From the sequence record NC_007820.1: 6,039 nt of DNA; one strand, written 5' to 3'. Shown here one piece after another: positions 1 to 6,039 of the stretch. The notes below the pieces were generated by a model. That model was not told the DNA's origin. It saw only the letters and a list, made by a program, of their open reading frames with translations, and did no database searches. This DNA is from Escherichia phage NC35. The position numbers were made by a program, and so were the translations under genes. Positions within the stretch are counted from its first letter, which is position 1. Each line of letters starts with the position of its first letter.

Positions 1-26
1 TTGTTGACATTCCCTGAACCCTTATG

Positions 27-64
27 AGACTCTTGCTTCAACGAAACGAAGTAGGAGTCTTTTT
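27..64 (+). terminator. Hairpin (about 12 bp stem, 28-39 pairing with 48-59, two G-U pairs, 8-nt loop) followed by TTTTT; possible intrinsic terminator downstream of gene H on the circular genome. Its right arm contains the Shine-Dalgarno of ORF 65..433.
   Basis: Seen in sequence: GACTCTTGCTTC (28-39) is complementary to GAAGTAGGAGTC (48-59), followed by a T-run at 60-64. By analogy, phiX174 has a terminator after H. Stability not computed. Confidence 0.4.
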
Positions 65-433
65 ATGAAACCAGCTCATCGCCTTTATCATCCTGTTCTC
101 GGTTCTTGGCTGTTCAAGTGCCCTGTTTATATCCGTTATGAGCATCTTCATCATGGTCGTCTTATCAAGGTTCGTGCTGTTCGTGACCTTTCTCCGCGTC
201 AGCAGTTGATTGCTAACCCTAAAAATTGCTTTGACGTTGTCATTGCTGAGATTGATGTTACTCACCTTTCTGTTACTTTGTACGATTTTGAAGCTGAGGA
301 GTATGCTGAGTGTGATTCCGGTACTATGGAGCTTCTTCTTTCTCAGGTAAATTCTGGCGAGGTTATTCGCTCCTCCGAAGACCTGTTTGTTGATGTTGAC
401 GATATGGATTGGCTTTATGAAATTGCGGAGTAA
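65..433 (+). CDS. Hypothetical protein, 122 aa, with a basic N-terminal half and a strongly acidic C-terminal half; not part of the canonical phiX174 gene set.
   Basis: ATG at 65 preceded by AGGAG (53-57) with 7-nt spacing; stop TAA 431-433. Third codon positions are T-rich, as in the known phage genes here. Same strand as all other genes. No recognisable similarity to phiX174 proteins by eye. Confidence 0.5.
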   Translation: MKPAHRLYHPVLGSWLFKCPVYIRYEHLHHGRLIKVRAVRDLSPRQQLIANPKNCFDVVIAEIDVTHLSVTLYDFEAEEYAECDSGTMELLLSQVNSGEVIRSSEDLFVDVDDMDWLYEIAE

Positions 434-436
434 ATT

Positions 437-526
437 ATGGAAACTGTTATCGGAAAACTTATTGCTCTGGCTGTTGTTGCTCTTATGCTGTATGGAATTG
501 CCCGTTTGATTTGGAGGTTTCCGTGA
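437..526 (+). CDS. Small hydrophobic peptide, 29 aa (METVIGKLIALAVVALMLYGIARLIWRFP), possibly a single-pass membrane peptide.
   Basis: ATG at 437 with GGAG (427-430) 6 nt upstream, starting 3 nt after the ORF1 stop. Hydrophobic core flanked by K and R/W residues; T-rich third codon positions. Below the length cut-off of the supplied ORF track, so translated by hand. Confidence 0.35.
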   Translation: METVIGKLIALAVVALMLYGIARLIWRFP

Positions 527-699
527 AATATTTTAGTTTGGTAGATGAACATTATGCTTACTGCCCTGATACAAGGATTTTGCACATCACTCGTAGTCGT
601 GTTTCTGACCCTCGCTATGAGCGTCGCTTTCTTACTGATGAGGAGCATTTTGCACTTTTGGATTGGTTGAAAAATCGTCCAATATACATCAATTCTTGA
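523..699 (+). CDS. Hypothetical protein, 58 aa, GTG start overlapping the stop of the preceding small ORF (GTGA).
   Basis: GGAGG (513-517) lies 5 nt upstream of GTG 523; GTG 523-525 overlaps TGA 524-526 of ORF 437..526, suggesting translational coupling. Phage-like codon bias. The ORF track gives 511..699 from a TTG start with no Shine-Dalgarno; I prefer the GTG start. Confidence 0.35.
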   Translation: MKYFSLVDEHYAYCPDTRILHITRSRVSDPRYERRFLTDEEHFALLDWLKNRPIYINS

Positions 700-729
700 C
701 AGATAGTTTTACTACGAGGACTTTTTCGT

Positions 730-2214
730 ATGGCTACTGAAGTTTTCTCTGATGTTGTTAAGACCGTCTGGTCCCACGCTACGGCTAAGCATGCCCATCT
801 TCGTATGGCTGTTCAGGTTGATAACCGCAGTCGCCTTCTTTCTGACCTTGTTTATCAGTTGGAAAAACGCCTTTCTGAAGAGACTCATTTAGATGATGAG
901 ACTCTTGCTGTTTATGAATCTCAGACCGCTCTTCTGGAAGACCATATGGCTCTGGTTCGGAAGTGTGCTGCCCAACTTGATAATAGTAACACTATAGACC
1001 ACCGTACCCCTTTGGATGCCGAATGTGTTTTCCTGTTTGAAATGATTTGCCCAGGTGTTCGCTACGGTAAAACGTTGAATTCTCTTTGGTCTAAGTATGT
1101 TGCTCAATGGCCTGAGAAGTTAATTCGTCAAGAGTTAGACATGGTTAAGCCTTTATCCTTTAAGGATGAGGTTGCTAAGTACATGGAGAAGATGCAGGAA
1201 AAAACACGTAAAAATCGCATGACTCAAAAAGTAATTAATGATATGCGTATTGCTCACCAAAAGGGCTGGTTTTTCGTATTTGATACGTTGACACTTGCTG
1301 ATGACCGTTTGCAGGCATTTAATGAAAACCCCAATGCTCTTCGTGATTATTTCAGGACTGTTGGTCGAGCTGTTCTGCGCGCTGAAGGTCGTTCGGTTAA
1401 GGATTCCTACAACGACTGCTATCGCTATCTTTGTGTGCCGGAGTTTGGAGGTCAGCACGGTCGTCTTCATTGGCACGTTGTGCATATGGTGCGGACTCTT
1501 CCTTTGGGAAGTCACGACCCTAATTTCGGTCGCAAGGTACGTAATTATCGCCAGATTAACTCGTTCCGTGGCATGTGGCCTTATGGCTTCACGCAACCGA
1601 TAGCTGTACGCTATCAACATGATGCTTATTCTCGCAAAGGTTGGTTGTGGCCTGTTGACAAATCAGGTAAAGCAATGCAGAGTAAGCCCTATCAGGCGGT
1701 CGCATGGTATGTGACCAAGTATGTAGCCAAGCAATCTGACCAGCGTCAGAAAGCTATTACTGAGAGACAAAAAAAATGCAAGAATCCACTTATGGCAATC
1801 TGTCTGAAAAAGGAATTCAGAGTTCGCAGCAGCCGGAAGCTCGGAATGGAGTTACCTTCGATGGCGCATCTCAGCAACAAAGTGCTTCTGGAACTGAGCC
1901 GAATCAGCTTCGATTCCAGTCCTCTGTATCAGATAGTGAAAGAGAACGCCAAAAAGCAATTGACCTTGAACATCGGCGCACTGCCTTTGCACGTCATTTT
2001 GGATGTGCGCCCGGAAGTGAGAAGTATGTTGAAAAATATCCGTCGTTTGATGAAAAAGACACCCGAGTTCAATTGGCAGAGTTCTATCGCTTCAATGACG
2101 GTCACCTTAAAAAATGGGGATATTTCTGATGAAGCACGTCAATACATTATTGATGCAGGAATTACGCCTTTTGATTTGCGAGCTAAAGCGACTCAAACTT
2201 TCGGCGGTAAGTGA
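730..2214 (+). CDS. A: Replication initiation protein A (rolling-circle HUH endonuclease), 494 aa.
   Basis: Clear similarity to phiX174 protein A across the conserved core (FVFDTLTLADDRL, NPNALRDYFR, GRLHWHVVH HUH-type motif, YVTKYVAK two-tyrosine active-site motif, C-terminal DISDE...AGIT...GGK). GAGGA (716-720) precedes ATG 730. An in-frame stop at 697-699 rules out a longer N-terminus. Confidence 0.95.
   Translation: MATEVFSDVVKTVWSHATAKHAHLRMAVQVDNRSRLLSDLVYQLEKRLSEETHLDDETLAVYESQTALLEDHMALVRKCAAQLDNSNTIDHRTPLDAECVFLFEMICPGVRYGKTLNSLWSKYVAQWPEKLIRQELDMVKPLSFKDEVAKYMEKMQEKTRKNRMTQKVINDMRIAHQKGWFFVFDTLTLADDRLQAFNENPNALRDYFRTVGRAVLRAEGRSVKDSYNDCYRYLCVPEFGGQHGRLHWHVVHMVRTLPLGSHDPNFGRKVRNYRQINSFRGMWPYGFTQPIAVRYQHDAYSRKGWLWPVDKSGKAMQSKPYQAVAWYVTKYVAKQSDQRQKAITERQKKCKNPLMAICLKKEFRVRSSRKLGMELPSMAHLSNKVLLELSRISFDSSPLYQIVKENAKKQLTLNIGALPLHVILDVRPEVRSMLKNIRRLMKKTPEFNWQSSIASMTVTLKNGDISDEARQYIIDAGITPFDLRAKATQTFGGK
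973..1002 (+). other. Viral (+) strand origin of rolling-circle replication, a 30-nt conserved element inside gene A; predicted nick between G979 and A980.
   Basis: CAACTTGATAATAGTAACACTATAGACCAC matches the phiX174 origin 30-mer (CAACTTG/ATATTAATAACACTATAGACCAC, recalled from memory) at 27 of 30 positions, in the equivalent place within A (encoding ...LDNSNTIDHR...). Confidence 0.85.
1219..2214 (+). CDS. A*: A* protein, an in-frame internal restart of gene A (332 aa), inferred by homology to phiX174.
   Basis: Internal ATG at 1219 corresponds to the phiX174 A* initiator position just upstream of the conserved HADGW/HQKGW segment. No strong Shine-Dalgarno seen; call rests on synteny only. Confidence 0.45.
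   Translation: MTQKVINDMRIAHQKGWFFVFDTLTLADDRLQAFNENPNALRDYFRTVGRAVLRAEGRSVKDSYNDCYRYLCVPEFGGQHGRLHWHVVHMVRTLPLGSHDPNFGRKVRNYRQINSFRGMWPYGFTQPIAVRYQHDAYSRKGWLWPVDKSGKAMQSKPYQAVAWYVTKYVAKQSDQRQKAITERQKKCKNPLMAICLKKEFRVRSSRKLGMELPSMAHLSNKVLLELSRISFDSSPLYQIVKENAKKQLTLNIGALPLHVILDVRPEVRSMLKNIRRLMKKTPEFNWQSSIASMTVTLKNGDISDEARQYIIDAGITPFDLRAKATQTFGGK
1776..2129 (+). CDS. B: Internal scaffolding protein B, 117 aa, encoded within gene A in a different frame.
   Basis: C-terminal similarity to phiX174 B (AEFYRF...GYF terminus), acidic and Gln-rich N-terminal half, nested in A as in phiX174. Confidence 0.9.
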   Translation: MQESTYGNLSEKGIQSSQQPEARNGVTFDGASQQQSASGTEPNQLRFQSSVSDSERERQKAIDLEHRRTAFARHFGCAPGSEKYVEKYPSFDEKDTRVQLAEFYRFNDGHLKKWGYF

Positions 2215-2290
2215 TCCGGATTTTTCTCAGGAGGAGATTCATGCTGAGCTCGACTCGTTACTACGCAAGTTATCGCGCTACTTTGACTAA
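2129..2290 (+). CDS. K: Protein K, 53 aa (MKHVNTLLMQELRLLICELKRLKLSAVSDPDFSQEEIHAELDSLLRKLSRYFD), overlapping the end of A and the start of C.
   Basis: ATG 2129-2131 overlaps the B stop TGA 2127-2129 (TGATG), the same arrangement as phiX174 B/K. Leu-rich N-terminus resembles phiX174 K (IKQELLLLVYELNRSGLL). Translated by hand; below the ORF-track cut-off. Confidence 0.7.
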   Translation: MKHVNTLLMQELRLLICELKRLKLSAVSDPDFSQEEIHAELDSLLRKLSRYFD

Positions 2291-2447
2291 GCAGCTGATG
2301 TTTTTGACTAAAGCTGACTTTACTGATGATGATGAAAAATGGCTTAATGCCTTTGGTAATTTGCTCCGTCAGTGGTTTCAGATTGAGGATTGGAAAGGTA
2401 ATCATAAAAAATTGCTTGACGATTTAAAAAAACGTGATTACATTTGA
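2241..2447 (+). CDS. C: Protein C (DNA maturation/packaging), 68 aa from the ATG start; an alternative GTG start at 2211 overlaps the A stop.
   Basis: Similarity to phiX174 C (YASYRATLT...DDDEKWLNAFGNLLRQWF versus YFATFRHQLT...DEEKWLNMLGTFVKDWF). Strong AGGAGG (2229-2234) 6 nt upstream of ATG 2241. GTG 2211 (GTGA with the A stop) would mimic the phiX174 ATGA overlap, but lacks a good Shine-Dalgarno. Confidence 0.8.
   Translation: MLSSTRYYASYRATLTKQLMFLTKADFTDDDEKWLNAFGNLLRQWFQIEDWKGNHKKLLDDLKKRDYI
2416..2444 (+). promoter_or_regulatory. Candidate sigma70-type promoter upstream of D (TTGACG -35, 17-nt spacer, TACATT -10).
   Basis: TTGACG at 2416-2421 and TACATT at 2439-2444; location in the 3' end of C is consistent with the phiX174 D promoter position. 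Motif match only. Confidence 0.2.
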
Positions 2448-2490
2448 ACTGTTTCAAGGTTTCTTACCCATTAAATGTTAGGAGAATGTT

Positions 2491-2949
2491 ATGTCTAATC
2501 TTGTTGCTACTGATGTTAACTTTGCTACTTCTGTTGCTGCTCTGAAGATGCTTCAGGCTTCTGCTGTTCTGGATATTACCGAGGAGGATTTTGATTTCCT
2601 GACTGGTGATAAAATTTGGATTGCTACTGACCGCAACCGTGCGCGTCGCTGTGTTGAGGCTTGTGTCTATGGAACGCTGGACTTTGTGGGATACCCTCGC
2701 TTTCCTGCTCCTGTTGAGTTTATTGCTGCCGTCATTGCTTATTATGTTCATCCCGTCAACATTCAGACGGCCTGCCTCATCATGGAAGGCGCTGAGTTTA
2801 CGGAAAACATTGTTAATGGCGTCGAGCGTCCGGTTAAAGCCGCTGAGCTCTTCGCGTACACCTTGCGTGTTAAGGCCGGATTCAAAGAAACGGTTCTGAG
2901 CGCTGAAGAGAATGCTCGCCAGAAACTTCGTGCAAGTGGAGTAATGTAA
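2491..2949 (+). CDS. D: External scaffolding protein D, 152 aa.
   Basis: Near-identity to phiX174 D over most of its length (for example CVEACVYGTLDFVGYPRFPAPVEFIAAVIAYYVHPVNIQTACLIMEGAEFTEN). AGGAG (2480-2484) 6 nt upstream of the ATG. Confidence 0.96.
   Translation: MSNLVATDVNFATSVAALKMLQASAVLDITEEDFDFLTGDKIWIATDRNRARRCVEACVYGTLDFVGYPRFPAPVEFIAAVIAYYVHPVNIQTACLIMEGAEFTENIVNGVERPVKAAELFAYTLRVKAGFKETVLSAEENARQKLRASGVM
2669..2899 (+). CDS. E: Lysis protein E, 76 aa, encoded within D in the +1 frame.
   Basis: MERWTLWDTLAFLLLLSLLLPSLLIMFIPSTF matches the phiX174 E N-terminal transmembrane domain (MVRWTLWDTLAFLLLLSLLLPSLLIMFIPSTF). The start is taken at the Met aligning with phiX174 E, not the upstream ORF-track start at 2606. 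Confidence 0.8.
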   Translation: MERWTLWDTLAFLLLLSLLLPSLLIMFIPSTFRRPASSWKALSLRKTLLMASSVRLKPLSSSRTPCVLRPDSKKRF

Positions 2950-2950
2950 T

Positions 2951-3025
2951 ATGAAGAAAGCTCGTCGTTCTCCTTCTCGTAAGAAAGGTGCCCGTCTCTG
3001 GTATGTAGGCGGTTCTCAATTTTAA
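2951..3025 (+). CDS. J: DNA-binding (packaging) protein J, 24 aa (MKKARRSPSRKKGARLWYVGGSQF).
   Basis: Highly basic peptide whose C-terminus matches phiX174 J (KGARLWYVGG-QF). Starts 1 nt after the D stop (TAATATG). The short length is typical of alpha3-like or G4-like phages, not phiX174 (38 aa). Confidence 0.85.
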   Translation: MKKARRSPSRKKGARLWYVGGSQF

Positions 3026-3030
3026 TTGAT

Positions 3031-3044
3031 GGGGCTTCGGCCCC
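3031..3044 (+). terminator. J-F intergenic hairpin GGGGC(UUCG)GCCCC; likely terminator or mRNA-stabilising stem-loop.
   Basis: Perfect 5-bp G/C stem closing a C(UUCG)G tetraloop, immediately followed by TATAAGGAT (the F Shine-Dalgarno). phiX174 has a J-F intergenic hairpin at the equivalent position. Confidence 0.5.
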
Positions 3045-3059
3045 TATAAGGATTTTTAA

Positions 3060-4343
3060 ATGTCAAATGTACAAACTTCCGCTGAGCGTATCCCTCATGA
3101 CCTGTCTCATCTGGTTTTTGATGCAGGCAAAATTGGTCGTTTAAAAGTTGTTTCTTGGACTCCTGTTGTTGCAGGTGATTCTTTTGAGCTTGATATGATT
3201 GGCGCTATTCGCCTCTCCCCGCTTCGTCGTGGTCTTGCTGTTGACTCTCGCGTTGACTTGTTCACGTTTTATGTTCCTCATCGTCATGTATATGGTGAGC
3301 AGTGGATTGAGTTTATGAAGCAAGGTGTTGATGCTGCTCCTCTGGCTCCTGTTCAGTGCTCTCGTGGTTGGGATAGTGCGCAGTATCTCGCTACTATTCC
3401 GTCTAGTAACTTAAAGGTTCCTAAGTTCCTTCATCAAGGTTACCTGAACATTTATAATAACTATTTTAAAGCTCCGTGGATGGATGACTTGACTTATGCT
3501 AACCCGTCCAATATGAAAGGTGAAGACGTTCGTTTTGGTGTTCGTGCATGTAACTTGAAAACTATTTGGACCGCTCCGCTTCCTCCGGACACTGAAACCT
3601 CTCATTCTATGGAGACTGAGTCTAACTCCATTGACATTATGGGTTTGCAAGCCGCTTATGCTCAATTACATACTGAGCAGGAGCGTGATTACTTCATGAC
3701 TCGTTATCGTGATATTGTTAATGAATTTGGTGGTAGTACTTCTTATGATGCGGATAATCGTCCTTTGCTTGTTATGCATTCTGAGTTCTGGGCCTCAGGC
3801 TATGACGTCGACGGCACCGACCAAAGCTCTCTCGGTCAGTTCTCCGGTCGTGTCCAGCAGACGTTTAAGCATTCAGTACCGCGATTCTTCTGTCCTGAGC
3901 ATGGCACTATGTTCACACTCGTATTGGTCCGCTTCCCGCCGACTCATGAAATGGAGATGCATTACTTAGTTGGTAAAGAAGATTTGACTTATACTGATTT
4001 GGCTTGTGACCCGGCTTTGATGGCTAACTTGCCTCCGCGTGAGGTTAATATGTCTCAGTTCTTCCATTCTGGAAGTGCTAGTGCTAAGTTTAAAATTGCT
4101 GAAGGCCAGTGGTATCGCATGCAGCCTGACCGTGTTGCGCTGCCGTATAACTATCTTGATGGTTTTCCGTTCTATAGTGCGATTCCGTCTGATGATATTA
4201 AGCAGCGTGTTCTGGTTAATACTGATAACTACGATGAGGTTTTCCAGTCTATGCAGCTTGCTCACTGGAATATGCAGACCAAGTTCAACTGCACGATTTA
4301 TCGTAATATGCCGACTACTCGTGATTCTATTATGACCTCTTGA
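3060..4343 (+). CDS. F: Major capsid protein F, 427 aa.
   Basis: Extensive similarity to phiX174 F from MSN-QT-AER-PHDLSH through the C-terminal NLPTTRDSIMTS; same length as phiX174 F. AAGGA (3048-3052) upstream of the ATG. Confidence 0.97.
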   Translation: MSNVQTSAERIPHDLSHLVFDAGKIGRLKVVSWTPVVAGDSFELDMIGAIRLSPLRRGLAVDSRVDLFTFYVPHRHVYGEQWIEFMKQGVDAAPLAPVQCSRGWDSAQYLATIPSSNLKVPKFLHQGYLNIYNNYFKAPWMDDLTYANPSNMKGEDVRFGVRACNLKTIWTAPLPPDTETSHSMETESNSIDIMGLQAAYAQLHTEQERDYFMTRYRDIVNEFGGSTSYDADNRPLLVMHSEFWASGYDVDGTDQSSLGQFSGRVQQTFKHSVPRFFCPEHGTMFTLVLVRFPPTHEMEMHYLVGKEDLTYTDLACDPALMANLPPREVNMSQFFHSGSASAKFKIAEGQWYRMQPDRVALPYNYLDGFPFYSAIPSDDIKQRVLVNTDNYDEVFQSMQLAHWNMQTKFNCTIYRNMPTTRDSIMTS

Positions 4344-4349
4344 TTATGT

Positions 4350-4363
4350 GGGGCTTCGGCCCC
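4350..4363 (+). terminator. F-G intergenic hairpin GGGGC(UUCG)GCCCC, identical to the J-F hairpin.
   Basis: Same 14-nt stem-loop as at 3031-3044, again followed by TTAAGGAT (the G Shine-Dalgarno). Confidence 0.5.
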
Positions 4364-4380
4364 CTTTAAGGATATTGATT

Positions 4381-4926
4381 ATGTTTCAAGTTTATGTTTC
4401 TAAGCATGTTTCTCCGTTCACCTCTATGAATCGTGCTTTTGGTATTACTCCTTCTAGCAATCCGACTGTTGTTAACTCTGGTGAAATTCAGGCTGGTCGT
4501 TCTACTTTTCGTATTGCCTCTTCCATTGGTGCCGCTTCCAATGGTCAAGGTTTTGCGTTTGTTCAAATGATGGACCCTTATTCTCCTGATAATCAGCAGG
4601 TTTTTTCTGTTGCTGCTTCCCTGTCTTTTAGTGTTGATTCGAACTATGTTCCTTGCGTTATTCGTTTTGAGACTGCTAGCACGCAGCCGACTAATATCGA
4701 TGTTTCTACTGCTGACTTTATTCCGCTTGAGTCTTCTGCTCTCTCTGCTCGTGCTCTCAGTGTTCGTGATTGTGTTACCGTTGATGTTAAGCCTCGCATT
4801 GAAGGTAATAACGTTTTCGTTGGTGTGGTTTTCTGTTCTGCTGGAGCTAGTGCTGGTAATGTCACTGGTGCTGTTTCGATGGCTCAGGTTGACCATGAAG
4901 TTACAGCTTTGCAGCCTCTTAAATAA
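4381..4926 (+). CDS. G: Major spike protein G, 181 aa.
   Basis: N-terminus MFQ(V/T)(Y/F)(V/I)S(K/R)H and C-terminus ...TALQPLK match phiX174 G (MFQTFISRH...ICLQPLK), plus the central RFE(T/S) and DCVT(V/I)DV motifs. ATG 4381 with AAGGA (4368-4372) upstream; the ORF-track start at 4348 is a GTG inside the hairpin and is rejected. Confidence 0.95.
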   Translation: MFQVYVSKHVSPFTSMNRAFGITPSSNPTVVNSGEIQAGRSTFRIASSIGAASNGQGFAFVQMMDPYSPDNQQVFSVAASLSFSVDSNYVPCVIRFETASTQPTNIDVSTADFIPLESSALSARALSVRDCVTVDVKPRIEGNNVFVGVVFCSAGASAGNVTGAVSMAQVDHEVTALQPLK

Positions 4927-5061
4927 AAGGCCGCCGCACTCCCGGTTATATGCCTGCCCAGTGTAGGGCGGACCGAGCCGTACGGAGATACCCGATAAAC
5001 TAGGAACGTGGAAGGCGCAAGCCGCCTTCCATCCTGCTAAGCCTAAAGGAGACTTTCAGCT
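4927..5061 (+). other. Structured, GC-rich G-H intergenic region (135 nt) with at least two hairpins and an 8-bp palindrome; candidate complementary (-) strand origin or primase recognition site.
   Basis: Hairpins at about 4954-4971 (CTGCCC / GGGCGG, 6-nt loop) and 5009-5031 (GGAAGGCG / CGCCTTCC, 5-nt loop), a CCGTACGG palindrome at 4978-4985, and CTG at 5034-5036 just 3' of the second hairpin. G4-type phages place a DnaG-dependent origin in an untranslated hairpin-rich region. Confidence 0.4.
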
Positions 5062-6039
5062 ATGTTAGGTGCCGTTGTAGGTGGTATTGCTTCAGCCTTA
5101 GCCGGTGGAGCCGCCTCTAAGTTATTTGGTGGTAAGTCTGCCCCTCAAGCCGCTACAGAGTCCGCTGGCCTATCTAATGGTCAAGGTGTTATTGGTATGG
5201 ACCAAGATGCCGGTATTCAGTCGGCTATTCAGGGTTCAAATGTCCCAAATGGTCAGATTCCCGCCCCCACGCAGACTGGTGGTGTTATGTCTGATGCTAA
5301 AAACATGATTAAGAATGCTGGTAAGGATTTGCTTGATGGTGTCATGACTGCTGGTAGTGACCGAGTCAAACAAGCTTTGGTTGATGGATTGAGTGGTAAT
5401 AATGCAAAGAAACAAGGACAAGCAACCCGTGATTACTTGGCTGCAGCCTTCCCTGAACTCAATGCATGGGAGCGTGCTGGAGCTGGTGCTTCCGGCGCCG
5501 GCTTGGAATCTTCCAGCCAGGACCAACAGAAAGAATTGATGCGAATGCAGTTGGACAACCAGAAAGATATTGCGAAGATGCAGATGCAGAATAATTTGCA
5601 GATTGCAGGTATTCAGTCCGCTACTTCTCGTCAAAATACGAAGGATTCTGTTTATGCACAGAATGAGATGCTTCAGTACAATCAGCGTGAGTCGCAAGCG
5701 CGTGTTGAGTCCATCCTCGCCAACACTGACCTTACGGTTAAACAGGCCACCCATGAAATCATGAGAATGGCCCTTACTCGTGCTCAGGAGACTGGTCAAC
5801 ATTTAACTAACTCTCAGATTATGGCATTGGAGAAAAAGGTTTATGCAGAAATCGGAAAAATTCATCAAGATACTCAAAACTCTCGCTATGGTAGCTCTCA
5901 AGTTACTGCTGCGGCGAAAGATGTTACAAATATGATTTCTGATGCTGTTGGCGGTTTTGCCGACTGGGCTTCCCAGCAATGGAATTCCTTCTTTAAGGAT
6001 GGTAAGTCTAATGGTATTCCTCTTAATACCAGAAAATAA
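5062..6039 (+). CDS. H: DNA pilot (minor spike) protein H, 325 aa.
   Basis: Strong similarity to phiX174 H: N-terminal glycine-rich hydrophobic segment (GGIASALAGGA-SKLFGG), central TRDYLAAAFPELNAWERAGA, and AGIQSATSRQNTKD-VYAQNEML. AAGGAG (5046-5051) upstream; stop TAA at 6037-6039 is the window end. Confidence 0.96.
   Translation: MLGAVVGGIASALAGGAASKLFGGKSAPQAATESAGLSNGQGVIGMDQDAGIQSAIQGSNVPNGQIPAPTQTGGVMSDAKNMIKNAGKDLLDGVMTAGSDRVKQALVDGLSGNNAKKQGQATRDYLAAAFPELNAWERAGAGASGAGLESSSQDQQKELMRMQLDNQKDIAKMQMQNNLQIAGIQSATSRQNTKDSVYAQNEMLQYNQRESQARVESILANTDLTVKQATHEIMRMALTRAQETGQHLTNSQIMALEKKVYAEIGKIHQDTQNSRYGSSQVTAAAKDVTNMISDAVGGFADWASQQWNSFFKDGKSNGIPLNTRK

What the first reader, a model, noticed from the sequence alone, without database searches (positions are those of the whole stretch)
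1..729. The H-to-A region carries a compact three-ORF module absent from the canonical phiX174 gene set
Upstream of gene A there are 729 nt containing three same-strand ORFs. They are tightly packed: ORF1 65..433, ORF2 437..526 starting 3 nt after the ORF1 stop, and ORF3 523..699 with a GTGA stop/start overlap. Each has a Shine-Dalgarno (AGGAG, GGAG, GGAGG) at correct spacing, and all share the T-rich third-position codon bias of the bona fide phage genes. This is operon-like architecture, not random open frame. phiX174 has only a short non-coding H-A spacer, so this is extra coding capacity of unknown function. Possible roles include host takeover, superinfection exclusion or anti-defence. 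I recall that alpha3-like microviruses have an expanded H-A region, but I cannot say from memory whether these ORFs are annotated or expressed.
Basis: partly seen in the sequence, partly recalled or inferred. Interest (0 to 1): 0.7.

Follow-up and report, generated by a model that had tools for sequence, protein, structure and literature searches.

The report
Three unannotated genes in alpha3-like microviruses
The 729 bases between genes H and A of this alpha3-like microvirus carry three real, evolutionarily conserved protein-coding genes of unknown function that most reference annotations leave blank, and in this genome a deletion has fused them into one transcription unit with the replication gene A.

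Summary
The window is a complete 6039-nt alpha3-like microvirus (Alphatrevirus).

All three ORFs are intact in 27 distinct alpha3-like genomes. The exceptions are a frameshift in St-1 ORF1 and one low-coverage ORF2-ORF3 fusion. ORF1 (dN/dS 0.2) and ORF3 (0.09-0.13) show purifying selection, only in the proposed frames, at the level of genes F, H and D. ORF2 encodes a 29-aa transmembrane peptide. Its stop always overlaps or lies 1 nt before the ORF3 start, across two different junction sequences.

AlphaFold gives a confident ORF1 model (pLDDT 91) with no PDB match. No homologues exist outside this phage clade, so function is unknown.

New here: the module sits between two copies of the microvirus cassette "TTGACA, hairpin holding the SD, U-run, ATG". 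The window alone has lost the -10 element and the 5' hairpin arm of the copy in front of gene A.

The ORFs are not new. GenBank record M25640 flags ribosome-binding sites here, and phage Lilleven annotates them as hypothetical proteins. Best guess: a conditionally useful accessory (moron-like) operon.

The parts
4..9 (+). TTGACA hexamer of cassette 1, a -35-like element directly after the gene H stop codon
   Evidence: It is TTGACA in 23 of 25 sequences and TTGACT in 2, while the following 10 nt vary. It sits where the -35 of P_A sits in phiX174 and G4-like ID2. No canonical -10 follows; the only candidate is TGn-GACTCT at 25-33. The promoter scan does not call it.
26..64 (+). 14-bp hairpin (26-39 paired with 48-61, loop 40-47) followed by a U-run. 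It is terminator-like and holds the ORF1 Shine-Dalgarno site (53-57) in its 3' arm.
   Evidence: RNA fold gives -21.1 kcal/mol, z -4.1, with 0 of 200 shuffles folding as well. The lower 8 bp are invariant in 25 sequences, and the 35/52 pair switches between G-U and G-C. phiX174 and ID2 have the same layout in front of gene A.
65..433 (+). ORF1: a 122-aa soluble protein. Residues 1-65 are basic and almost invariant (pI 9.7). Residues 66-122 are acidic (net charge -15.5) with a hypervariable patch at about 85-99.
437..526 (+). ORF2: a 29-aa single-pass membrane peptide with a hydrophobic core at residues 4-24 and a basic C-terminal tail
   Evidence: The ATG is invariant, and length is 28-30 aa in 27 of 28 sequences. 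Kyte-Doolittle hydropathy over 19-residue windows is 1.55-2.34. Second codon positions almost never change: 2 changes against 19 and 11 at positions 1 and 3. The coding signal is weaker because synonymous change is about 4-fold suppressed.
523..699 (+). ORF3: a 58-aa protein of four beta-strands and a C-terminal helix, with a GTG start overlapping the ORF2 stop (GTGA)
   Evidence: It is intact in 27 of 28 sequences. dN/dS is 0.08-0.13 in frame and about 1-1.9 out of frame. The AF2 model has pLDDT 80.7. The start is GTG in 19 sequences and ATG in 8, and the stop/start overlap or 1-nt gap is always kept.
697..729 (+). Remnant of cassette 2, the P_A region. The -35 TTGACA (697-702) overlaps the ORF3 stop. 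The site of a 29-nt deletion lies at 705/706. The hairpin 3' arm with the gene A Shine-Dalgarno site (GAGGAC, 714-719) and a U-run precede ATG730.
   Evidence: All 26 other sequences read TTGACA-18 nt-TATATT (one has TATAGT; L035 has 1 nt extra)-GCCCTC...GAGGGC-U-run-ATG, with compensatory stem changes. The window lacks the spacer, the -10 and the 5' arm. What remains does not fold (-4.6 kcal/mol, z 0.2). No promoter is called anywhere in 1-729.
417..509 (+). Alternative +1-frame ORF (30 aa, hydrophobic) overlapping the ORF1 end and ORF2. Its status is unresolved.
   Evidence: It is open, with a conserved ATG and a conserved stop (one codon earlier in L021), in 27 of 28 sequences; L044 loses the stop to its fusion deletion. 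This region has the lowest diversity of the neighbourhood. However, third-position T is only 17% and no Shine-Dalgarno site is evident.

Best explanation
The H-to-A region of alpha3-like microviruses is a lineage-specific accessory operon of three real genes, comparable to a "moron" of tailed phages. It lies between two copies of the standard microvirus regulatory cassette: TTGACA, then a hairpin whose 3' arm contains the Shine-Dalgarno site, then a U-run, then ATG.

**Transcription (inferred).** The module is transcribed in one of two ways. One is read-through of the leaky hairpin after gene H. The other is initiation at the cassette-1 promoter-like site, with a start inside the hairpin loop as annotated for phiX174 P_A. 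A start there would leave the ORF1 ribosome-binding site unpaired.

**Translation (shown as architecture, inferred as mechanism).** ORF1, ORF2 and ORF3 are translated in series. ORF2 starts 3 nt after the ORF1 stop, and ORF3 starts at or 1 nt after the ORF2 stop.

**Products (predicted).**
- ORF1 is a soluble beta-rich protein. It has an invariant basic half and an acidic half carrying a fast-evolving helix, which most likely contacts a variable host or competitor protein.
- ORF2 is a single-pass inner-membrane peptide with its basic C-terminus in the cytoplasm.
- ORF3 is a small cytoplasmic partner made in step with ORF2.

**Role (inferred).** The module is most likely dispensable for plaque growth in the laboratory but strongly selected in nature. 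I think its likeliest role is at the cell envelope or in host interaction, such as exclusion of superinfecting phage or countering a host barrier. No result here distinguishes among these.

**This genome.** A 29-nt slippage deletion removed the -10 element and the 5' hairpin arm in front of gene A. Gene A therefore has no promoter of its own, and its Shine-Dalgarno site is permanently unpaired. ORF1-ORF2-ORF3-A should form one transcription unit.
For: **Coding status.**
- The ORFs are intact in 27 distinct genomes.
- dN/dS is 0.18-0.21 for ORF1 and 0.08-0.13 for ORF3, in the proposed frames only. Control genes in the same genomes give A 0.05, D 0.10, H 0.15, F 0.21 and G 0.51.
- Third-position T bias is gene-like.
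- In-frame indels preserve the ORFs: 120-, 129- and 154-aa ORF1 variants and 28-30-aa ORF2 variants.
- On the window's own lineage ORF1 has 5 synonymous and 1 nonsynonymous unique changes.
- The AF2 models are confident from shallow alignments. An independent BFVD model of the Lilleven orthologue superposes with TM 0.98.

**Translational coupling.** Two unrelated ORF2/ORF3 junction sequences both keep the stop overlapping or 1 nt from the start. In L021 the ORF1 stop directly abuts the ORF2 start as TAAATG.

**Strength of constraint.** In the most divergent relative, ORF2 and ORF3 are 90% and 89% identical in nucleotides, while flanking H and A are 81% and 78%.

**ORF1 diversification.** ORF1 in L021 is only 34% identical in amino acids. 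Omega reaches 0.74 at residues 85-99.

**Cassettes.** The phiX174 record annotates a transcription start at 3962, inside the hairpin loop.

**Accessory status.** St-1 carries an ORF1 frameshift. phiX174-like and G4-like phages lack the module. No homologue was found in 5,426 E. coli genomes, PLSDB plasmids, GTDB genomes or non-alpha3 phages.

**Deletion.**
Against: **No expression data.** No transcript, ribosome-profiling or proteomic evidence was found or could be generated.

**No functional clue.**
- Pfam, PHROGs, NCBIfam and PADLOC gave no significant hit.
- PDB sequence searches found nothing.
- The proposed role is therefore a guess from protein properties.

**Cassette 1 is doubtful as a promoter.** It lacks a recognisable -10, and its U-run is short or broken in several relatives, for example GGAGTCTCTATC in L021.

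**ORF2 evidence is ambiguous.** Its omega is 0.36 in frame and 0.17 in the +1 frame.

**Dispensability is weakly supported.**
- The St-1 frameshift could be a sequencing error. The old alpha3 record X60322 had one, and it disappeared on resequencing.
- ORF2 and ORF3 are more conserved than essential genes, which fits uneasily with "accessory".
Confidence: 0.55

Rival explanations
1. The module is essential or near-essential for the alpha3-like life cycle, for example in replication or gene A control, because it sits directly in front of gene A and P_A. It would be a core gene set that annotation missed, not an accessory cassette.
For: ORF2 and ORF3 are more conserved than the flanking essential genes H and A in the divergent contig L021. 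All 27 genomes keep all three ORFs. The ORF3 stop lies inside the -35 of P_A. ORF1 has a basic half and an acidic half.
Confidence: 0.2
2. Only ORF1 and ORF3 are genes. The ORF2 frame is open because the stretch is conserved for another reason, either the overlapping +1-frame ORF (417-509) or a nucleotide-level element.
For: Synonymous change in ORF2 is about 4-fold rarer than in its neighbours. Diversity is lowest at 405-499. The +1 frame has omega 0.17 against 0.36 for ORF2, and it is open with a conserved start and stop in 27 of 28 sequences.
Against: The ORF2 ATG and an upstream GGAG are present in nearly all sequences (in L021 the ATG instead abuts the ORF1 stop). The ORF2 stop tracks the ORF3 start through two different junction sequences and several indels. 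The +1-frame synonymous sites that never vary are the ones where the ORF2 change would be radical (G6, K7, Y19, T3, M17). The +1 frame has no T-rich third position (17%) and no evident Shine-Dalgarno site. No stable RNA structure is present.
Confidence: 0.15
3. The region is non-coding spacer and the ORFs are chance open frames in T-rich sequence. This is the traditional annotation.
For: RefSeq and GenBank records of alpha3, St-1, phiK and the Rokyta-series phages annotate nothing here.
Against: Selection is frame-specific, third positions dominate the substitutions, indels preserve the frames, the structure models are confident, and codon bias is gene-like.
Confidence: 0.02

Closest known systems
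The H-A region of alpha3, St-1, phiK, WA13 and other Alphatrevirus genomes, including the three hypothetical proteins QBZ71502-QBZ71504 of phage Lilleven (MK629527)
   Same: The ORFs are orthologous, with the same order, lengths (122, 29 and 58 aa) and junctions. Nucleotide identity over 1-703 is 82-94%. Protein identity is 75-97% for ORF1 and 86-97% for ORF3.
   Different: The window lacks the 29 nt carrying the -10 and the 5' hairpin arm in front of gene A, which every other sequence has. It has three otherwise rare or unique residues: ORF1 L72, ORF2 W26 and ORF3 I54.
The phiX174 and G4 H-A intergenic cassette (P_A promoter overlapping the terminator hairpin after gene H, with the gene A Shine-Dalgarno site in the 3' arm)
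   Same: The order of elements is the same: TTGACA, about 17-18 nt, a hairpin whose 3' arm is the Shine-Dalgarno site, a U-run, then ATG. Alpha3-like phages have it in front of ORF1 and again in front of gene A.
   Different: In alpha3-like phages the first copy drives ORF1, not gene A. It has a longer hairpin (14 bp against 6-8) and lacks a recognisable -10. The window has lost half of the second copy.
Morons of tailed phages: extra genes with their own promoter and terminator, inserted between conserved genes
   Same: The genes are lineage-restricted, are inserted between conserved core genes, are bracketed by promoter-like and terminator-like elements, have no homologues in sister clades, and are probably dispensable in the laboratory.
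   Different: Morons are defined in temperate dsDNA phages and are expressed from the prophage. This is a strictly lytic 6-kb ssDNA phage, no lysogenic expression is possible, and independent transcription has not been shown.
Non-essential microvirus genes K and A*
   Same: They are small accessory products in a compact microvirus genome.
   Different: K and A* are overprinted inside gene A or A/C. ORF1-3 occupy their own non-overlapping stretch and share no sequence similarity with K or A*.

Membership tests
Alphatrevirus (alpha3-like Bullavirinae) conserved H-A ORF module | Located between the gene H stop and the gene A start on the coding strand of an alpha3-like genome | tested here: met
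   The window is colinear with NC3, WA13 and alpha3 at 86-94% identity. The module occupies 65-699, between H (ends 6039) and A (starts 730).
Alphatrevirus (alpha3-like Bullavirinae) conserved H-A ORF module | Orthology of all three products to those of other alpha3-like phages | tested here: met
   ORF1 is 75-97% identical and ORF3 86-97% identical to tblastn hits in 24-25 records. The first 21 residues of ORF2 are identical or differ at up to 3 positions from 27 other sequences.
Alphatrevirus (alpha3-like Bullavirinae) conserved H-A ORF module | Complete promoter/hairpin cassette (TTGACA, 18 nt, TATATT, GCCCTC...GAGGGC) between ORF3 and gene A | tested here: not met
   It is present in 26 of 26 other sequences. 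In the window a 29-nt deletion removes the spacer, the -10 and the 5' arm.
Protein-coding gene under purifying selection | dN/dS well below 1 in the proposed frame and near or above 1 in the other frames | tested here: met
   ORF1 gives 0.18 in frame against 1.4 and 2.1 out of frame. ORF3 gives 0.13 against 0.95 and 1.6. For ORF2 the test is inconclusive: 0.36 in frame, 0.17 in +1 and 4.5 in +2.
Moron (phage accessory gene cassette) | Absent from close relatives that share the flanking genes | tested here: met
   phiX174 has 63 nt and G4-like ID2 has 61 nt between H and A, with no ORF.
Moron (phage accessory gene cassette) | Own functional promoter and terminator, expressed independently of neighbouring genes | not testable with these tools
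   A conserved TTGACA and a terminator-like hairpin are present upstream. No canonical -10 is present and no transcript data exist.
Moron (phage accessory gene cassette) | Dispensable for lytic growth | tested here: inconclusive
   The only natural disruption is the St-1 ORF1 frameshift, which may be a sequencing error. ORF2 and ORF3 are never disrupted.
Known anti-defence, defence or superinfection-exclusion protein families | Sequence or fold similarity to a characterised member | tested here: not met

The most novel reading that the evidence does not exclude
ORF1-ORF3 form a previously unrecognised microvirus host-interaction system. A membrane peptide (ORF2) and its coupled partner (ORF3) are more constrained than the essential genes around them. 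With them sits a new-fold effector (ORF1) whose acidic helix evolves in an arms race. Together they provide exclusion or counter-defence in a 6-kb lytic ssDNA phage, and the ORF2 stretch may encode a second, overprinted peptide.
Probability: 0.2. Interest if true: 0.75.

Novelty: already known. Interest (0 to 1): 0.45.

Why it matters
Microviruses of the phiX174 group are treated as fully annotated model genomes of ten or eleven genes. The alpha3-like clade, however, carries about 640 nt of conserved coding sequence, roughly 10% of the genome, that RefSeq leaves blank and nobody has characterised.

The comparative evidence here is strong enough to justify annotating the three genes. It also gives concrete experiments: knockouts, 5'-RACE and proteomics.

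Several features make this a cheap test case for what accessory genes do in minimal lytic ssDNA phages:
- a confident ORF1 model with no known fold;
- an ORF2-ORF3 pair more conserved than genes H and A;
- a natural variant in which gene A has lost its own promoter.

The duplicated regulatory cassette also suggests how the module was acquired.

Tried and rejected
**Homology and structure searches that found nothing useful**
- Pfam, PHROGs, NCBIfam and PADLOC scans gave nothing significant.
- Searches of 5.8 billion proteins found only alpha3-like contigs.
- A profile search over 1.84 billion representatives added one divergent ORF1 homologue, P0029.
- PDB profile searches found nothing.
- tblastn and blastn against plasmids and E. 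coli genomes gave no match.
- A degenerate ORF2 pattern matched nothing in GTDB genomes and only the same 12 contigs in IMG/VR.
- ORF2 alone was too short for the protein search.
- Rfam found nothing in the whole window.

**Hypotheses tested and rejected**
- ORF1 and ORF3 as paralogues: the two models hit the same weak PDB matches, but hhalign gave 0.9% probability.
- Stable RNA structure as the cause of ORF2 conservation: z-scores are above 0.
- A zinc site in ORF3 or ORF1: the candidate residues H10 (ORF3) and C19 (ORF1) are not conserved.
- TTG511 as the ORF3 start: it is not conserved.

**Literature**
- Seven searches and several papers found no discussion of these ORFs.
- Rokyta et al. 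2006 is not held in the library, and Kodaira et al. 1992 did not surface in the searches.

**Slip in a control**
- My "gene C" control used a wrong frame and gave dN/dS 6.7. It serves only as an off-frame control.
Full report
**What the window is.** The 6039-nt window is a complete alpha3-like microvirus genome (genus Alphatrevirus), written from the base after the gene H stop codon.
- It is colinear with NC3 (94% identity), ID32, WA13, WA45 and ID21 (92-93%), and alpha3, St-1 and phiK (85-86%).
- No database sequence is identical to it.
- It is a mosaic. Positions 1-900 are closest to alpha3 (92-96%). Positions 900-4200 are closest to NC3, NC29, ID32 and WA13 (96-100%). Part of gene G is only 83% identical to the nearest relative.
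- Only 59 positions are unique to the window among 12 colinear genomes. In ORF1 these are 5 synonymous and 1 nonsynonymous. That pattern is what a naturally evolving lineage under purifying selection would show.

**Checking the observation.**
- The ORF list gives 65-433 (122 aa), 437-526 (29 aa) and an ORF ending at 699.
- The sequence shows AGGAG at 53-57, GGAG at 427-430, GGAGG at 513-517, and the GTGA stop/start overlap at 523-526.
Every relative has GTG or ATG at that aligned position, and the upstream TTG511 is not conserved.
- Third-position T content is 58%, 50% and 53% for ORF1, ORF2 and ORF3. Genes A, D, F, G and H give 43-67%, and off-frames mostly 15-32%.
- phiX174 has a 63-nt H-A spacer and G4-like ID2 a 61-nt one.
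- The description is accurate throughout.

**Are the ORFs genes?** I assembled the H-to-A region from 27 distinct alpha3-like sequences plus the window. The set comprised 13 GenBank genomes and contigs from IMG/VR, JGI, ENA and Logan.

*Integrity.*
- All three ORFs are intact everywhere, with two exceptions.
- St-1 has a 1-nt deletion that frameshifts ORF1 after codon 55.
- One 761-nt contig at 2x coverage has ORF2 and ORF3 fused in frame.
- The 1992 alpha3 record also splits ORF1, but the resequenced DQ085810.2 does not.

*Substitution pattern.*
- Parsimony counts on a neighbour-joining tree give 134, 78 and 366 changes at codon positions 1, 2 and 3 for ORF1, and 44, 24 and 124 for ORF3.
- Omega is about 0.18 for ORF1 and 0.13 for ORF3 in the proposed frames.
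- In the other frames omega is 0.95-2.1.

*Controls.* Pooled pairwise Nei-Gojobori estimates on 14 genomes give ORF1 0.21 and ORF3 0.086. In the same genomes gene A gives 0.05, D 0.10, H 0.15, F 0.21 and G 0.51.

*Indels.* Indels keep the frames:
- ORF1 variants of 120 and 129 aa;
- a 154-aa ORF1 variant with a 32-residue in-frame insertion after codon 3;
- ORF2 variants of 28-30 aa.

*Gene calling.* Independent gene calling on metagenomic contigs finds all three ORFs each time.

**ORF2 specifically.** ORF2 is too short and too conserved for dN/dS to decide. Omega is 0.36 in frame and 0.17 in the +1 frame. Other evidence supports translation:
- The ATG is invariant.
- Second codon positions almost never change: 2 changes against 19 and 11 at positions 1 and 3. 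That fits a hydrophobic helix.
- The stop follows the ORF3 start through two unrelated junction sequences. In 19 sequences the junction is ...GGAGGTTTCCGTGA, with a GTG start and a tail RRFP. In 8 sequences it is ...AGGACTTTGAAATGA, with an ATG start and a tail R(T/I)LK. ID32 has a 1-nt gap.
- In the most divergent contig, L021, the ORF1 stop directly abuts the ORF2 start (TAAATG) and the ORF2 stop overlaps the ORF3 start as ATGA.

Conserved coupling geometry across different sequences is hard to explain unless ORF2 is translated.

**An unresolved feature of the ORF2 stretch.**
- Positions 405-499 are the least diverse part of the whole neighbourhood, with pi 0.06-0.10.
- Synonymous change there is about 4-fold rarer than in ORF1 or ORF3.
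- No stable RNA structure explains this.
- A +1-frame ORF (ATG417 to TGA509, 30 hydrophobic residues) is open with a conserved start and stop in 27 of 28 sequences; in L044 the fusion deletion removes the stop.
- The variable sites are those that are silent or conservative in both frames. That fits dual coding.
- Against dual coding, the +1 frame has no T-rich third position (17%) and no evident Shine-Dalgarno site.
- I leave this open.

**The products.**

*ORF1 (122 aa).*
- AlphaFold2 on a 19-sequence alignment gives pLDDT 90.8 and pTM 0.83, with nine strands and two helices.
- The BFVD model of the Lilleven orthologue superposes with TM 0.98.
- Residues 1-65 are basic (pI 9.7), with omega 0.01-0.09.
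- Residues 66-122 carry a net charge of -15.5.
- Omega rises to 0.74 over residues 85-99, which is helix 85-96 and the loop after it.

*ORF2 (29 aa).* It has a hydropathy of 1.55-2.34 over 19-residue windows, an acidic N-terminus and a basic C-terminal tail. I read it as a single-pass membrane peptide with the C-terminus inside the cell.

*Relationship between ORF1 and ORF3.* They are not detectably paralogous.

**Distribution.**
- Family libraries gave no significant hit.
- Searches of 5.8 billion proteins returned only clusters on microvirus contigs or short fragments of them (up to about 6.3 kb).
- A full HMM scan of 1.84 billion representatives added a single divergent ORF1 homologue, P0029, at E 9e-16.
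- That homologue lies on contig L021, where the order H, ORF1, ORF2, ORF3, A is kept.
- In L021 the H tail and the A head are 81% and 78% identical to the window in nucleotides.
- In the same contig ORF1 is 58% identical in nucleotides and 34% in amino acids, while ORF2 and ORF3 are 90% and 89% identical in nucleotides.
- ORF2 and ORF3 are therefore more constrained than the neighbouring essential genes, and ORF1 is a fast-diverging gene.
- No homologue exists in non-alpha3 phages, PLSDB plasmids, 5,426 complete E. coli genomes or GTDB species genomes.

*The standard cassette.* In phiX174 and G4-like ID2, the short H-A spacer is a single cassette with these parts, in order:
1. TTGACA;
2. a 17-nt spacer and a -10 element;
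3. a GC-rich hairpin whose 3' arm is the gene A Shine-Dalgarno site;
4. a U-run;
5. the gene A ATG.

The phiX174 record annotates a transcription start at 3962, inside the hairpin loop.

*Cassette 1, in front of ORF1.*
- TTGACA lies at 4-9. It is conserved in 23 of 25 sequences although the following 10 nt vary.
- A 14-bp hairpin spans 26-61. It folds at -21.1 kcal/mol with z -4.1 and contains AGGAG in its 3' arm.
- A U-run follows, then ATG65.

*Cassette 2, in front of gene A.*
- All 26 other sequences read TTGACA, 18 nt, TATATT (TATAGT in ID32; 1 nt extra in L035), hairpin GCCCTC...GAGGGC, U-run, ATG.
- The stem shows compensatory changes, for example ATAG/CTAC against AAAG/CTTT.
- The ORF3 stop codon lies inside this TTGACA.

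*Inference.*
- The three ORFs sit between two copies of the same regulatory design. ORF1 occupies the place that gene A has in phiX174.
- By analogy with phiX174, transcripts reading through from gene H would fold hairpin 1. They would terminate partly and hide the ORF1 ribosome-binding site.
- Transcripts starting in the loop would leave that site free.
- Cassette 1 has no canonical -10, only TGn-GACTCT, and the promoter scan does not call it. Promoter activity there is therefore a hypothesis.

**What is peculiar to this genome.**
- The window alone lacks 29 nt between 705 and 706. These are the spacer, the -10 element and the 5' arm of hairpin 2.
- Relatives such as L018 and L035 read TTGACAGATAG...CATAGT. 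The deletion therefore looks like slippage between short direct repeats.
- What remains does not fold, so the gene A Shine-Dalgarno site (GAGGA, 714-718) is unpaired.
- No promoter-like site is called anywhere in 1-729.
- I infer that gene A must be transcribed from upstream in this genome. That makes ORF1-ORF2-ORF3-A a single unit.
- The loss of the terminator arm together with the promoter is a self-consistent change, but viability was not tested.

**Mechanism and confidence.**
- Very likely (above 0.9): ORF1 and ORF3 are expressed proteins under selection.
- Likely (about 0.8): ORF2 is translated.
- About 0.55: the best-supported overall reading is a lineage-specific accessory operon, comparable to a moron, with translational coupling. 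It makes a soluble fast-evolving effector plus a membrane peptide and its small partner.
- Weakest step: the specific role. I lean to a function at the envelope or in host interaction, such as exclusion of other phages or countering a host barrier. My reasons are the membrane peptide, the hypervariable acidic helix and the restriction to one clade. No result here tests this.
- Main rival (about 0.2): the module is a core function for this clade, which the extreme conservation of ORF2 and ORF3 would suit.

**Novelty.**
- The ORFs are not new as sequence features. Record M25640 marks four ribosome-binding sites in this region. Lilleven (MK629527) annotates all three as hypothetical proteins.
- Most reference records leave the region blank.
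- I found no paper in the held library that discusses these ORFs. Rokyta et al. 2006 is not held, and Kodaira et al. 1992 did not turn up in the searches.
- This analysis adds the selection evidence, the structure models, the two-cassette architecture, the contrast between ORF1 and ORF2/3, and the promoter-hairpin deletion.
- I rate the finding as already known in kind but uncharacterised, of moderate interest, and directly testable.

Noticed in passing
window 697-729 (deletion point 705/706): A 29-nt deletion, unique among 27 alpha3-like sequences, removes the spacer, the -10 (TATATT) and the 5' hairpin arm (GCCCTC) in front of gene A. Gene A is left with no recognisable promoter and an unpaired Shine-Dalgarno site. 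Short direct repeats (GATAG/CATAG) in related sequences suggest slippage.
   Followed up: partly
window 417-509, + strand, +1 frame relative to ORF2: A 30-codon hydrophobic ORF overlaps the ORF1 end and ORF2. Its start and stop are conserved in 27 of 28 sequences, and it coincides with a 4-fold drop in synonymous change and the lowest diversity of the region. It may be an overprinted gene or a by-product of conservation.
   Followed up: partly
window 1-6039 (whole genome): The genome is a recombinant mosaic. Positions 1-900 are alpha3-like. Positions 900-4200 are NC3/NC29/ID32/WA13-like, up to 100% identical over 300 nt. About 4500-4800 in gene G is only 83% identical to the nearest relative. 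Of 59 window-unique substitutions, 23 are nonsynonymous changes in G.
   Followed up: partly
L005 (St-1, NC_012868) 65-429: A 1-nt deletion frameshifts ORF1 after codon 55 in the St-1 reference. It is either real loss in a laboratory phage or a sequencing error. The 1992 alpha3 record had a similar split, which resequencing removed.
   Followed up: partly
L021 820-1475 (Logan SRR20337160 contig): A divergent alpha3-like contig has an ORF1 only 34% identical in protein (129 aa), while ORF2 and ORF3 are about 90% identical in nucleotides. That is more conserved than the flanking H (81%) and A (78%).
   Followed up: yes
L038 1501-1965 (P0017) and L044 298-534 (P0022): Two variant forms were seen. 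One is a 154-aa ORF1 with a 32-residue in-frame insertion after codon 3, together with a changed upstream hairpin. The other is an in-frame ORF2-ORF3 fusion on a 2x-coverage contig.
   Followed up: no
window 4927-5061 (G-H intergenic, 135 nt): This long non-coding gap lies between G and H. From memory, this is where the primase-dependent complementary-strand origin of alpha3, St-1 and phiK lies. Rfam has no model that matched it, and it was not examined further.
   Followed up: no
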